This document shows, one piece after another, positions 46,687-57,948 of a stretch of 64,000 bases of DNA. The DNA comes from Octopus sinensis (Eukaryota). A program made the translations under genes and the position numbers. Under the pieces are notes generated by a model. It saw nothing but the letters and a program-made list of their open reading frames with translations. It was not told where the DNA came from and ran no database searches. The stretch lies in the NCBI RefSeq assembly GCF_006345805.1, contig NC_043003.1:20150001-20214000 (forward strand), read 5' to 3'. Position 1 is the first letter of the stretch. Each line of letters begins with the position of its first letter.

Positions 46687-48407
46687 TTAATCGGGGGTGC
46701 TGGGGAACGGTGGGGTTGGGGGGTTTTTGTGGGGTGGGGTGTCGTCAATCGGTTGCCGGGTGGGTCTATAGTTCTTGTAGTTTGCATAAATTTTATGCAT
46801 GCAATTTTGGGAGTGTTCTGAGATCTTGTTGAGGAGATGGCCTTTGGCGAACAAGATCTCGAGGCTCTCGGAAATGCAAAGGTCACAGCAGGTATGGCCT
46901 CCTGTGTACGAACGCGCCTTCTGTAGTAGTCTCCACTTGGTCTTGAAGGGGATGGAGTTCCTTTTAAGGTACCAGATGTGGGCGGCGAGGGTAGTTTGGT
47001 TGGATTTATCCGGTCGCCGGAACGAGTGTGTGTGGGCGTACCAGCGGGTCTTGAAGCTGTTTGACGTCATTCGGATGTACGATTTTCTTTTATCATCGGG
47101 GCCTGATCTTACCTCGCATGTATATACGAGGTCCCTCTGTAGGCAGTTGTTATTGAGGGGGCAGGTGGTTTTATCAGGGCAGTTGCAATTGCTATCGGAT
47201 GTTGGATGGGCCTCGGAAAGAGTAGATATATTAAGTTTTTTCACGTTGTTGTTGGCTAGGTTCCTGGCTAGATTGGGCGTGGTAGAGTAGGAGAGTCTAA
47301 TGGTATTCTTATTTAGGATAGTATAGTACTTATGTTGGGTGGGGAAGTGTTTCTGTAGGAGAGTGAAGAAGATTTTAGCTACAGGTGTAGCGACCTCACG
47401 GTTGAAGGGGGGGGGTTGTACCAGCTAATGTGTCTTCGCCTATTTTTCCTGGGTTGGCGTGGGGCTATACTAGTATAGGTGATCTTATCTTTAAAGCCAC
47501 TGCGGGCCAGGGCCTCGTTGTAATAGGGGGCTGCGGCGTTAAAGATATCTTCAGTAGCGGACAGGCTAGATATTCTAATTGAGACACTTTTTACTAGGTT
47601 GTCTAATATATTTTTGGGGTGGTTGGAATTAATATCTATATATCTAAGGGATTCATTTGGTTTGTGGTACGGGTAATAAAGTGAGGTTTTTAAGTCGAGG
47701 GTAACGTCAAGGAAGTTAGCTTTGGTTAAGTTGGATTCTAAGGTAATCCTAAGGCCTAAGTTTTTAAAAAAAGTGTAAAGATTTTTCCGGAACCCATCCG
47801 TGGTCCTGGGGTTTATTTGCGGAGGGCAAAAAGGCCATCATCGCGGTAAGACCACCGGAGAGGCCTGTGAATAGGGTCTTCAGCTTATGGAGGATGAAAA
47901 GGCCCACAAGGTCACTTATTTCAGCCGAGTCGCTAGCACCCATGCTGACGTCGAAGGGGGTCACAGATTTTTTGTTGATCCAGTGGGATCCGTCGTGGAA
48001 AAGAAAAGTCTTACGTGCGTGGAGGATCACATCTTGCTCGGCCTCGGTGATGGTGGAGGACCTCCTAGCGAAGTTAATCGCGTCGATCAGCAAGTTCTCC
48101 GATATGGAGGCGTAGTAGTCTTCGATATCTAATTGTAGGAATCGGGTGTTGCTTTTGTCAGGTAAATCCCGGAACCAGGTTATTGCCTCGGAGGTCCTAT
48201 TCCAGAGTGGAAGAAGCGAAGCTTCACGCATTTTTGGTAAAATCCTGTCCAGGATCTTCTTGCTGACGGATCCGATGTCAGACTTGGTCGGGTTAATTAG
48301 TCGGACCGACGGTTTATTTTCGAAATTGTCCTTGTGGTCTTTCAGGGTGAAGTGTGGGGACTTCACCCTCAGGGGTTCAGTTCGGTCATCGATTTTAAGG
48401 GAGGTGG

Positions 48408-48410
<3 letters not shown>
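46687..48410 (-). pseudogene. PLE reverse transcriptase plus GIY-YIG endonuclease ORF, 5'-truncated and frameshifted
   Basis: FTLKDHKDNF..RLINPTKSDIG; FLQLDIEDYYASI; FDVSMGASDSAE; YRDDG (47834-47848, after a 1-nt frameshift); NFLDVTLDL..YHKPN..NSNHP; ISWYNPP.FN; CNC..CPLNNNC linker; LVYTCEV..SYIRMTSNSFKTRWYAH..CDLCISE..LLN. Possibly Nematis-like (inference). Confidence 0.93.
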
Positions 48411-48440
<30 letters not shown>

Positions 48441-48441
<1 letters not shown>

Positions 48442-48712
48442 GTGAATGTCAAACGATGAAATGAGTGCGCAACACCGCATTGGTGGATAAATAATTTCTT
48501 TATTTGTGAATTAAGGCTATCAGTGGTTTCATGTTGAGAAAAGTAGGGAAATATCTTTGTGTCATAACAATTTTTCAAGCCTATCACAAGGAAATAAACG
48601 GTCTCCAAGATAGAAACAAACAACTTTCTCCATGCAATCGGCTTGAAAATTGTTAAGACTTTAGGATATTTTCCTACTTTTCTTAACATGGTAGCTTTAA
48701 TTCACAAATAAT
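48441..48712. mobile_element. (TA)n-flanked inverted-repeat cassette (48501-48581 / 48640-48710) carrying a U3:A8 hammerhead-like motif (48514-48582, minus)
   Basis: Minus strand of the left arm: aggc-TTGAAAA-attgtt..aacat-GAAA-ccactga-TA-gcct. The right arm has lost the GAAA/stem III segment. Confidence 0.65.
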
Positions 48713-55061: not shown

Positions 55062-55235
55062 ATTTTATTATATATATATATATATAAGTAAAAGCAATTA
55101 AGATTCAAGTGAGTTCTGTTGAATTCACATGAATGCGGTACTTAACTTAGATGCACCAGAAATCTATATGGTATTAACCATAAGATAATGCGGGGTGATT
55201 ATAAACAAGAAAAAAGCAACAAAAATGGATCAATA

Positions 55236-55325
55236 TTTCAGTACAATTGTTTCATACGAGGACCAGCTTTATTAAGGCTGCAAATATTGCAGCAAATGCA
55301 AGTGACCTGTACTCATCAGCCGAAA
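55236..55325 (-). ncRNA. Second copy of the same hammerhead on the opposite strand
   Basis: Minus strand: tttcgg-CTGATGA-gtaca..cgtat-GAAA-caattg-TA-ctgaaa. Confidence 0.8.
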
Positions 55326-55490
55326 AAACATTTGAGTTCACCAAACATCTGAGGGGGTGAGGCTACACTCCTGAAACATCAGGGATAGTTCTATAAAAAT
55401 CAGATTTAGATAATAGACGGACTTCCAAAGTTCTCTAATGTTGCACAGTCATATAACAGGTCTTAAAAAAGTAATTTAAAAAACCTGTTT

Positions 55491-55580
55491 TTTCGGCTGA
55501 TGAGTACGGGTCACTTGCATTTGCTGCAACATTTGCAGCCTTAATAAAGCTGGTCCTCGTATGAAACAATTGTACCGAAA
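55491..55580 (+). ncRNA. Canonical type-I hammerhead ribozyme; predicted cleavage after 55574
   Basis: tttcgg-CTGATGA-gtacg..(branched stem II containing gctgcaa cat ttgcagc)..cgtat-GAAA-caattg-TA-ccgaaa. Stem III is palindromic. Confidence 0.85.
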
Positions 55581-55637
55581 TATTGATCCATTTTTGTTGC
55601 TTTTTTCTTGTTTATATATATATATATATATATATAT

Positions 55638-55667
<30 letters not shown>

Positions 55668-55672
<5 letters not shown>

Positions 55673-56170
55673 TAACAAAGGGTGAAATTAATTAATTAAG
55701 AAGTAATTAGTAATTTCACGAAGTAGAATTTGGCATGAAAAAAGACCATTTTATGGTAAGTTTAAGTAATACTATATAATTAGGGTTCAGCAACGATTAG
55801 CTTCACCACACACCGAAGTTTTAGAATAGCAGTCAAAATCCTAACTATTCTTTCTACTTTAAAGGGAGTTCCCAGAAAAACCAAAGCACTTGAAGATATA
55901 TATATATTATATATATATATATAATATATATATATAAGTTATAACAAAGGGTGAAATTAATTAATTAAGAAGTAATTAGTAATTTCACGAAGTAGAATTT
56001 GGCATGAAGAAAAGACCATTTTATGGTAAGTTTAAGTAATACTATATAATTAGGGTTCAGCACGATTAGCTTCACCACACACCGAAGTTTTAGAAATAGC
56101 AGTCAAAATCCTAACTATTCTTTCTACTTTAAAGGGAGTTCCCAGAAAAACCAAAGCAAGCACTTGAAGA
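55668..56170. repeat. Near-identical ~230-bp unit duplicated in tandem with a (TA)n spacer
   Basis: 55668-55897 and 55937-56170 differ only by small indels. Confidence 0.9.
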
Positions 56171-57295
56171 TATATATATAATATATATATATATGTACAT
56201 ACATACTCATATATATACATATTTATATACATGCATATGCGTCTGTGTGTGTATGTATATATACATATATACATATATGTGTGTGTGTGATTATACGAAC
56301 ATGAGCGTGTCTATATGTGTGAGAGTATATTTGAACTCAAATCGCGTATTTTTGCTGCAATCATGTGTTGGCGTTTGTGTTTAGGTGCAATAGGCGTGAT
56401 TAAAGTGTTTGTATGCAGCATGTATTCACGTGCATATCACTAAATGCATCTCAAATTTCTAGGCAAAATACACTTGCGCATATTAAACTATGGATTGTGC
56501 TAATAGCAGCCATAAATCTCTCAGGAATGAAATGAAACCAAATAGTCATTCTAATCTATTAAAAATAAACGGCAAAATGTATTTTACGAGTCCATGAAAT
56601 TAATGCTGAAATATGAGCCACGCCTCTCTCCTGTATAGTGACACTCTTCTGGCCTGTCTATCACTTCGCACCCCTTTCCTTCTTCTCTTCTTTTTCTAAT
56701 AATTTCTCTTTCTCTCGCTTCCCCCCCTTCTTTTTCTCTCTTTTTCTCTCCTCCCTCTCTCTCTCCCTTACTCTCGCTGTAGTTCTGTTTCCGGTCGTTA
56801 CGATTTCAATCCAAGCCGGCCAGCTCAACTAGATCTATGATAGATCTGAGAAGATAAAAGGCGTTCCATCCACGACCATCTTATATTGATGCTCAGGAAT
56901 TGTATACCCAGAACTACATTATTTAACGTGTCTTTTCCTTTTGAGATAGCTTTTATTTCTTTACGTTTTACCTGTTTCTCTTGTTGAACAGCGACTGTGC
57001 CGGGGCACCGCCTTGAACGCTTTTAGTCGAATACATAGACCCAGTAATTTATTTTTAAGTCTGGGACTGATTCTATCAGCGTCTTTTGCCGAACAGCTAA
57101 TATTACCGGGACATAAACAAACTGACACCGGTTGTCAAGCGGTGGGGGTAGGGTGATAAGCACAAGCAGAAACTCACCCACATACACATACACATACATT
57201 CATCATACATACATTCATACATACATACGTACATACATACGTACATACATATATACATATACATACATATATACATACATACATACATACATACA

Positions 57296-57359
<64 letters not shown>

Positions 57360-57363
<4 letters not shown>

Positions 57364-57623
57364 CGGAGATGTACTCGCATAGCAAGTGATTTGATCTGAG
57401 ATCGTGTGCTGGAACGAAAACGATTGCAGCGTGGAAGGTATTTGTAAGTCATTTAAGAAACACACAAAAGCCGTTCGATTATGCAGCACGGATTTTTGTC
57501 AGTGAACAGGTCGCGGATTTTAGCGACGAAAATATTTTGACAAATTAAACTTAAATGTTGAAGTGAATCGAACGGCTTTTGTGTGTTTCTGAAATGGCTT
57601 ACAAATACCTTCCACGCTGCAAT

Positions 57624-57658
<35 letters not shown>

Positions 57659-57914
57659 CGGAGATGTACTCGCATAGCAGTGATTTGATCTGAGATCGTG
57701 TGCTGGAACGAAAACGATTGCAGCGTGGAAGGTATTTGTAAGTCATTTAAGAAACACACAAAAGCCGTTCGATTATGCAGCACGGATTTTTGTCAGTGAA
57801 CAGGTCGCGGATTTTAGCGACGAAAATATTTTGACAAATTAAACTTAAATGTTGAAGTGAATCGAACGGCTTTTGTGTGTTTCTGAAATGGCTTACAAAT
57901 ACCTTCCACGCTGC

Positions 57915-57918
<4 letters not shown>
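57360..57918 (+). mobile_element. Two tandem ~265-bp inverted-repeat cassettes (period 294), each with a G3:C8 hammerhead variant
   Basis: Units 57360-57624 and 57655-57918, with 58-bp IR arms (57423-57480 / 57566-57623). The loop contains tttgtca-GTGAACA-g-gtcgc ggatttta gcgac-GAAA-atat-TT-tgacaaa. Confidence 0.8.
57495..57544 (+). ncRNA. Type-I hammerhead fold with swapped G3:C8 core (identical copy at 57789-57838)
   Basis: 7-bp stem I, 5-bp stem II, GAAA, palindromic ATAT stem III, core GUGAACA. Confidence 0.65.

Positions 57919-57948
<30 letters not shown>

What the first reader, a model, noticed from the sequence alone, without database searches (positions are those of the whole stretch)
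57495..57838. G3:C8 swapped-core hammerhead (GUGAACA) inside a hairpin cassette
Seen: tttgtca-GUGAACA-G-gtcgc/gcgac-GAAA-auau-UU-ugacaaa, in the loop of a 58-bp inverted repeat and present twice. Both core changes together reproduce the C3G/G8C double swap, known mainly from engineered rescue experiments. Two independent transversions landing on exactly this pair by decay are unlikely (inference). It also has an extra G before stem II and a UUU cleavage triplet, which is usually weak.
Basis: partly seen in the sequence, partly recalled or inferred. Interest (0 to 1): 0.8.

Follow-up and report, generated by a model that had tools for sequence, protein, structure and literature searches.

The report
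Swapped-core hammerhead in octopus Penelope retroelements
Thousands of copies of a Penelope-like jumping element in this animal genome carry a small hammerhead-ribozyme motif in which two paired core letters have swapped places (G3:C8 instead of C3:G8), while related elements keep the pair as C:G or U:A, so the pairing is likely maintained by selection, although self-cutting is untested and probably weak.

Summary
Real, and not a decayed one-off. The motif is the minimal type I hammerhead in the pseudo-LTR of a Penelope-like retroelement (PLE; RT plus C-terminal GIY-YIG). A 23-mer spanning GUGAACA has 3,853 exact genomic matches; 90 of 100 arms sampled without regard to the core are G3:C8, none C3:G8; four subfamilies of different age and 6 of 6 near-intact ORF copies share it. 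Homologous motifs in six related PLE families read C:G (4) or U:A (2), so the 3:8 pair covaries. The extra nucleotide and U17 are ordinary for PLE hammerheads; the 58-bp inverted repeat is a PLE insertion by-product; the window's two copies are one local duplication. Copies start at one 5' site with an untemplated G (34 of 49), likely a cap signature, and show no excess of ends at the cleavage site (1 of 93): templates were likely uncleaved. Cleavage is untested. I found no natural G3:C8 hammerhead in the papers I could search (key papers not held); this scan noted G3:C8 before in phages and protist PLEs. New variant of a known kind; interest 0.5.

The parts
57361..57480 (-). Inverted, 5'-truncated copy of the element's 3' end, including the ~58-nt optional PLE 'tail' (57361-~57420); forms the left arm of the inverted repeat
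57481..57624 (+). Direct copy of the element's 5' piece (pseudo-LTR end), from 2 nt inside the inferred transcription start to the tail-less 3' end
57495..57544 (+). Minimal type I hammerhead motif: stem I 7 bp, core G3 U4 G5 A6 A7 C8 A9 plus extra G, stem II 5 bp, GAAA, palindromic helix III AAUAUU, U17; predicted cleavage 57537/57538
   Evidence: cleavage site inferred from hammerhead numbering
57502..57507 (+). Swapped tertiary pair G3 (57502) : C8 (57507)
57594..57624 (+). First codons of the element's ORF (ATG 56 nt downstream of the predicted cut); frame continues through the tail in intact copies and is homologous to the sister family's N-terminus
   Evidence: joining to the main ORF is inferred, no copy with the junction was seen
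57627..57655 (.). (TA)n tract between the two units; (TA)n also flanks both outer ends (target microsatellite)
57656..57920 (+). Second unit, local tandem duplicate (or assembly duplicate) of 57361-57626; hammerhead motif at 57789-57838

Best explanation
This is the minimal hammerhead motif at the 5' end of a Penelope-like retroelement family with thousands of copies, its core pair reads G3:C8 in nearly all copies, and it likely still forms the hammerhead fold and would cut itself only weakly, as a dimer or with the element's protein. Shown: family membership, parent RT/GIY-YIG ORF, fixation of G3:C8, Watson-Crick covariation of 3:8 among related families. Inferred: a capped transcript starts 23 nt upstream of position 3; with one motif per RNA the palindromic helix III has no partner, so the RNA stays uncut; the element's RT starts internally in the first ORF codons (two sites, ~58 nt apart) and copies back through the motif to the cap, which yields the many 150-210-bp insertions, often with an inverted second copy, in (TA)n or AT-rich targets. 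In tandem read-through transcripts two motifs would pair through AAUAUU and cut after U17. Identity ~0.95; measurable cleavage ~0.55-0.6.
For: Family: 3,853 exact matches of a core-spanning 23-mer, reversed control 0; 5,589 of a downstream 24-mer. Fixation: G3 30/30 and C8 29/30 in loci anchored upstream; 90 of 100 arms G3:C8, 0 C3:G8; 0 of 10 doubly changed copies C3:G8; 78 and 92 of the first 100 listed in two older subfamilies; no variant at >=2% at 57502 or 57507 in four runs labelled as four other organisms. Parent: 6 of 6 fetched near-identical long ORFs (715-1042 aa) have the identical motif 0.9-1.05 kb behind the stop; ORF has YVDD, CxxxCxxC linker and GIY-YIG-type motifs, sister ORF hits RVT_1 and GIY-YIG below cut-off. 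Covariation: sister family (~61% aa; 2,045 exact 32-mers) and five metagenome relatives have the motif in the same place with 3:8 = C:G x4, U:A x2, compensatory stems I/II, 15.1:16.1 = A:U, U:A or G:C, helix III palindromic in 6 of 7 families. Subfamily-diagnostic changes: 0 of 35 stem/core sites vs 4 of 7 loop II sites (p=3e-4). C3G/G8C partly rescues a PLE hammerhead, which needs protein to cleave (PMC11167929). PLE anatomy: two 3' ends, 9-16-bp target duplications in 15 of 33 spans tested, (TA)n at 43 of 85 3' flanks.
Against: No cleavage data. The engineered swap only partly restores activity (PMC11167929, PMC8495972). G3 pairs with U17 in the predicted ground state (P=0.67), like the inhibitory C3-G17 trap (PMC3884650); the active double hammerhead (-27.2 kcal/mol) is above two monomers (-29.4) and the cofold optimum (-31.3). 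Only 1 of 93 5' ends lies within 2 nt of the cut site, 1.3 expected if uniform. Stem/core constraint is not significant against the rest of the element (0/35 vs 11/142, p=0.08). Relatives carry other core departures (C9 in sister and L184; A5 and a 1-bp stem II in L188; no motif seen in 3 of 8 relatives), suggesting relaxed catalysis in this clade. C8-to-G is over-represented among single changes (48 of the first 100 of 288). Three of the five metagenome motifs were parsed by eye. Hammerhead mutants do not impair PLE insertion in vitro (PMC11167929).
Confidence: 0.62

Rival explanations
1. [quoted passage not shown]
For: Templates were uncleaved; G3-U17 trap and unfavourable dimer; multiple core departures in the clade; motif lies 16-65 nt behind the inferred start; PLE clades without canonical hammerheads thrive (PMC8557442).
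Against: The 3:8 pair is a tertiary contact of the active conformation (established knowledge); keeping it Watson-Crick in 7 of 7 families, with GAA, a palindromic helix III and non-G N17, is what catalysis predicts.
Confidence: 0.25
2. Neutral passenger: the motif died in a master element, two transversions happened to land on 3 and 8, and copying spread it.
For: Identity among copies reflects common descent, not selection; C8/G8 interchange is frequent at this site; constraint versus flanks not significant.
Against: All other core positions and both stems are intact although stems and loops have turned over relative to the sister family; unchanged through four subfamilies spanning 1.8-11.7% divergence while loop II changed.
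Confidence: 0.11
3. A non-LTR retrozyme or MITE-like hairpin unit that spreads as a circular RNA or DNA transposon, as the tandem 294-bp hairpin units might suggest.
For: Two tandem units in the window; strong hairpin (z -16.8).
Against: Other copies are dispersed, with variable inversion junctions; the tandem shares private changes and is bounded by (TA)n; direct link to a PLE ORF; 5' ends carry an extra G rather than starting at the cut site.
Confidence: 0.02

Closest known systems
Minimal type I hammerheads of metazoan Penelope-like elements (min-HHR; Cervera & de la Pena 2014, PMC4209133)
   Same: In the pseudo-LTR; type I; extra nucleotide between 9 and 10.1; G10.1-C11.1; palindromic helix III; U17 common; mostly solo copies from truncated elements; natural 3:8 covariation (U3:A8) known.
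   Different: G3:C8 is in 0 of 56 listed motifs (53 C:G, 2 U:A, 1 U.G; my count); extra nucleotide is G (1 of 56 there); their descriptors demanded C3-G8 or U3-A8 and would miss it.
PAc Poseidon element of Anolis (Frangieh et al. 2024, PMC11167929)
   Same: Hammerhead near the ORF start; two internal RT start sites giving an optional tail; AT-rich targets; unprocessed RNA as template; C3G/G8C double mutant partly active.
   Different: There the swap is engineered, here natural; ORF starts 56 nt after the cut site rather than in stem II; tail ~58 nt rather than 30-40; CxxxCxxC linker present.
Neptune/Nematis clades of EN+ PLEs (as described in PMC8557442)
   Same: RT then CX2-5CxxC linker then GIY-YIG with CCHH-type residues; microsatellite targeting; inverted 5'-truncated copy; tail.
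   Different: Clade placement not tested against reference sequences.
Natural U3:A8 hammerheads (Perreault et al. 2011, PMC3088659)
   Same: Compensatory change of the 3:8 pair in nature.
   Different: Transitions there; a double transversion here; section 8 of that paper names no G3:C8.

Membership tests
Hammerhead ribozyme (type I) | Three-way junction with stems I and II around the core | tested here: met
   7-bp and 5-bp stems; compensatory changes in relatives
Hammerhead ribozyme (type I) | Literal core consensus CUGANGA | tested here: not met
   GUGAACA; 0 of 100 arms C3:G8; no Rfam match
Hammerhead ribozyme (type I) | Watson-Crick 3:8 pair, U4 G5 A6, A9, G12 A13 A14, A15.1:U16.1, H17 | tested here: met
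Hammerhead ribozyme (type I) | Site-specific self-cleavage 3' of N17 | not testable with these tools
   Only contigs, no raw reads; copy 5' ends show no peak at the site
PLE minimal hammerhead | Located in the pseudo-LTR of a PLE | tested here: met
   6 of 6 long-ORF copies
PLE minimal hammerhead | Extra nucleotide 9/10.1 and palindromic helix III | tested here: met
   G 57509; AAUAUU
PLE minimal hammerhead | Active as a dimer | tested here: inconclusive
   Double hammerhead is nestable but 2-4 kcal/mol above alternatives
EN+ Penelope-like element | Single ORF with RT and C-terminal GIY-YIG endonuclease | tested here: met
   Motifs in L142; Pfam RVT_1 E=0.0015 and GIY-YIG E=0.0025, both below cut-off, on the sister ORF only; no significant Pfam hit on this family's ORF; homologs named RT-domain proteins
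EN+ Penelope-like element | 5' truncation, inverted 5' copy, optional tail | tested here: met
Neptune clade | CX2-5CxxC linker upstream of GIY-YIG | tested here: met
   shared with Nematis
Neptune clade | Phylogenetic placement with reference Neptune RTs | not tested
   No reference sequences at hand
Non-LTR retrozyme | Tandem arrays of hammerhead units with canonical loop-loop contacts, circular RNA | tested here: not met
   Dispersed, ORF-linked copies; the tandem here is a local duplication

The most novel reading that the evidence does not exclude
A naturally evolved, active G3:C8 hammerhead has been spread to thousands of sites by an octopus retroelement, in a PLE clade that has sampled every Watson-Crick version of the 3:8 pair seen so far except A:U and three versions of 15.1:16.1; such cores are invisible to consensus searches, so many 'hammerhead-less' retroelements would in fact carry one, and U17 would be the co-adapted partner that avoids a G3-C17 trap.
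Probability: 0.45. Interest if true: 0.68.

Novelty: new variant of a known kind. Interest (0 to 1): 0.5.

Why it matters
The 3:8 swap is the classic laboratory proof of the hammerhead's active fold; a natural, high-copy, multi-subfamily example with C:G and U:A relatives is a ready test of whether the pair rather than the G8 base is what nature selects, and of what hammerheads do in Penelope-like elements, an open question. It shows that CUGANGA-based searches miss whole families. The extra-G signature also offers genomic evidence that these short copies come from capped, uncut RNA primed internally, matching a mechanism so far shown in vitro for one element.

Tried and rejected
Rfam: no hammerhead hit. 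DNA search with the 85-nt loop alone returned nothing, an artefact of common-word filtering. 3' splice site reading of the upstream CTAAC...TTTCTCAG: set aside because 5' ends pile up at the A of that AG with an untemplated G, never a G in copies that run on upstream (0 of 40); an intron there is not excluded. A G3.G8 master lineage as evolutionary intermediate: G8 copies are scattered (21 changes for 27 tips, shuffles mean 25.8, 2 of 500 as low; duplicates included) and often in one arm only; rejected as a main lineage, excess unexplained. Expression: no RNA holder on record was listed; contigs of guessed-RNA runs cover motif and ORF but cannot show ends. Viral contigs: 22 matches to a 16-mer, none hammerhead-like. 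MAFFT alignment of motifs failed through wrong coordinates; replaced by a structural table. RT tree: this family and its sister group with support 100, nearest relatives C:G, but three rows were frameshifted, so deeper branches are unreliable. Four short metagenome loci (L190-L193) were not examined. Not held: Lunse 2017, Hammann 2012, Przybilski & Hammann 2007, Arkhipova 2017, Martick & Scott 2006.

Full report
Observation. Numbering: G3 57502, C8 57507, extra G 57509, G12 57528, A15.1 57531, U17 57537. Stems I (7 bp) and II (5 bp) form in the predicted fold. A loose descriptor finds both copies and 0 G3:C8 matches in 150 simulated windows. Rfam has no match. The two copies are a 294-bp tandem duplicate between (TA)n tracts, differing by one base and sharing private changes.

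It is a repeat family. The genome is 2.72 Gb; the best named homolog of the element's protein is from Octopus vulgaris, so a cephalopod is inferred. A core-spanning 23-mer has 3,853 exact matches, a downstream 24-mer 5,589, reversed controls 0. In 28 non-self loci from a DNA search, 23 have G3:C8, 2 A3, 1 C3.C8, 2 lost the core, 0 C3:G8. In 30 loci anchored upstream of the motif G3 is 30/30 and C8 29/30; in 100 arms not anchored on the core, 90 are G3:C8, 5 G3.G8, 0 C3:G8. Genome-wide in the 22-nt context, 152 copies change only position 3, 288 only position 8, 10 both, none of the 10 to C3:G8. Four loop II subfamilies with 1.8, 3.0, 6.9 and 11.7% divergence are all majority G3:C8 (78 of the first 100 of 185 and 92 of the first 100 of 1,841 in the two older ones, counted by eye). 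Runs labelled as four other organisms show no variant at 2% or more at positions 3 or 8.

The parent is a Penelope-like element. Longer copies lead upstream into an ORF. Six of six fetched near-identical long ORFs (715-1042 aa) carry the identical motif 0.9-1.05 kb behind the stop. [quoted passage not shown] Insertions show the anatomy described for PLEs in PMC8557442 (passages): an inverted 5'-truncated copy with a variable junction, which makes the hairpin; two 3' ends about 58 nt apart, the optional tail; 9-16-bp target duplications in 15 of 33 spans tested (many spans incomplete, two pairs are the same insertion) and (TA)n at 43 of 85 3' flanks. The tail reads as the ORF's first codons and resembles the sister family's N-terminus, as in PAc (PMC11167929, parts 1-2 of 4 read).

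The 3:8 pair covaries. A sister family (~61% amino-acid identity; 2,045 exact 32-mers) has a homologous motif in the same place with C3:G8, C9, the same extra G, compensatory stems and U or C at 17. Of 12 metagenome loci encoding relatives, 8 were examined; 5 have a homologous motif (2 found by my scanner, 3 by eye). Over seven families 3:8 is G:C once, C:G four times, U:A twice; 15.1:16.1 is A:U five times, U:A and G:C once each; helix III is palindromic in six; the extra base is G in six. One (L188) is degraded. This family groups with the sister (support 100) and the nearest outgroups are C:G, so G:C is likely derived (deeper branches unreliable). Within the family, subfamily-diagnostic changes hit 0 of 35 stem/core sites, 4 of 7 loop II sites (p=3e-4) and 11 of 142 other sites (p=0.08).

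What the copies say about cleavage. Of 93 arms anchored downstream, 39 end within -24 to -17 (numbering from core position 3), and 1 within 2 nt of the predicted cut, 1.3 expected. Among 49 arms that end at the A at -20, 34 have a G before it (p=4e-15 against 18% G), whereas 40 arms that run on upstream have C or T there. An untemplated G is what reverse transcription across an m7G cap leaves, and the site resembles an initiator (both recalled, not from a call). So templates were likely capped RNAs not cut at the motif. That fits a dimer-dependent ribozyme present once per RNA, and fits PAc, where uncut RNA is the template and cleavage needs protein, but it equally fits a dead ribozyme. Folding is not encouraging: G3 pairs with U17 in the ground state (P=0.67) and the double hammerhead is 2-4 kcal/mol above alternatives. 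PMC3884650 (passages) reports, as data not shown, that G3-C8 is more active with G17 than with C17, so U17 may be the tolerable partner (inference). C8-to-G changes are oddly frequent (48 of the first 100 of 288) but scattered on the tree and often in one arm only; unexplained.

Comparison with print. In Cervera & de la Pena 2014 (main text parts 1-2 of 4 and supplement parts 1-2 of 3) 54 of 56 listed PLE hammerheads have the extra base, 24 have U17, one has UUU; 3:8 is C:G 53, U:A 2, U.G 1, G:C 0 (my counts); activity is low even as dimers. Perreault 2011 (section 8) reports natural U3:A8 only. The engineered swap partly rescues (PMC8495972 passage; PMC11167929). Full-text searches turned up no natural G3:C8 hammerhead and no description of this family; also consulted without relevant result: PMC6765202 (passages, section 11 part 2), PMC7229834 and PMC11014351 (passages), bioRxiv 2026.07.22.740005 (part 1 of 5). 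Lunse 2017, Hammann 2012, Przybilski & Hammann 2007, Arkhipova 2017 and Martick & Scott 2006 were not held, so 'not in print' is provisional. This scan's earlier notes report G3:C8 motifs in phages and protist PLEs (unchecked here); none on this genome.

Verdict. It works like, and by every sequence test except the literal CUGANGA is, a PLE minimal hammerhead; catalysis is untested. New variant of a known kind; interest 0.5.

Noticed in passing
L147 ~6871, L151, L152, L162-L181 (sister PLE family): Sister family (2,045 exact 32-mers) has C3:G8 but C in place of A9 and a non-palindromic helix III; C9 recurs in L184 with U3:A8.
   Followed up: partly
L182 ~4973, L188 ~2358: Related PLE motifs with U15.1:A16.1 and G15.1:C16.1 swaps; L188 also has A5 and a 1-bp stem II.
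   Followed up: partly
family 5' ends, e.g. L252, L254, L260, L264 (window equivalent just before 57481): Untemplated G before the common 5' end in 34 of 49 arms, a likely cap signature marking the element's transcription start.
   Followed up: partly
window 57507 equivalent, L194-L213: C8-to-G transversions outnumber C8-to-T transitions among single changes (48 vs 38 of 100), without forming a clade.
   Followed up: partly
window 57531-57593: A>G differences are far more common in two guessed-RNA runs than in two other runs (57592: 39% and 15% vs 0.04% and 0.03%), as A-to-I editing of the hairpin would give; runs are from differently labelled organisms, so not shown.
   Followed up: no
window 46687-48510 (-): Broken copy of a different RT plus GIY-YIG-type (Penelope-like) element in three reading frames; no hammerhead seen directly behind it.
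   Followed up: partly
window 55624-56215 and 55200-55616: Another (TA)n-bounded tandem duplication (270 bp) and a 131-bp inverted repeat, suggesting such duplications are common here or come from assembly.
   Followed up: no
window 19798 (-): Loose U3:A8 hammerhead-like match, at the level seen in simulated sequence.
   Followed up: no
L147 ~7420 and L152 ~7700: Further CUGANGA...GAAA motifs with long stem II near sister-family copies, probably other repeat families.
   Followed up: no
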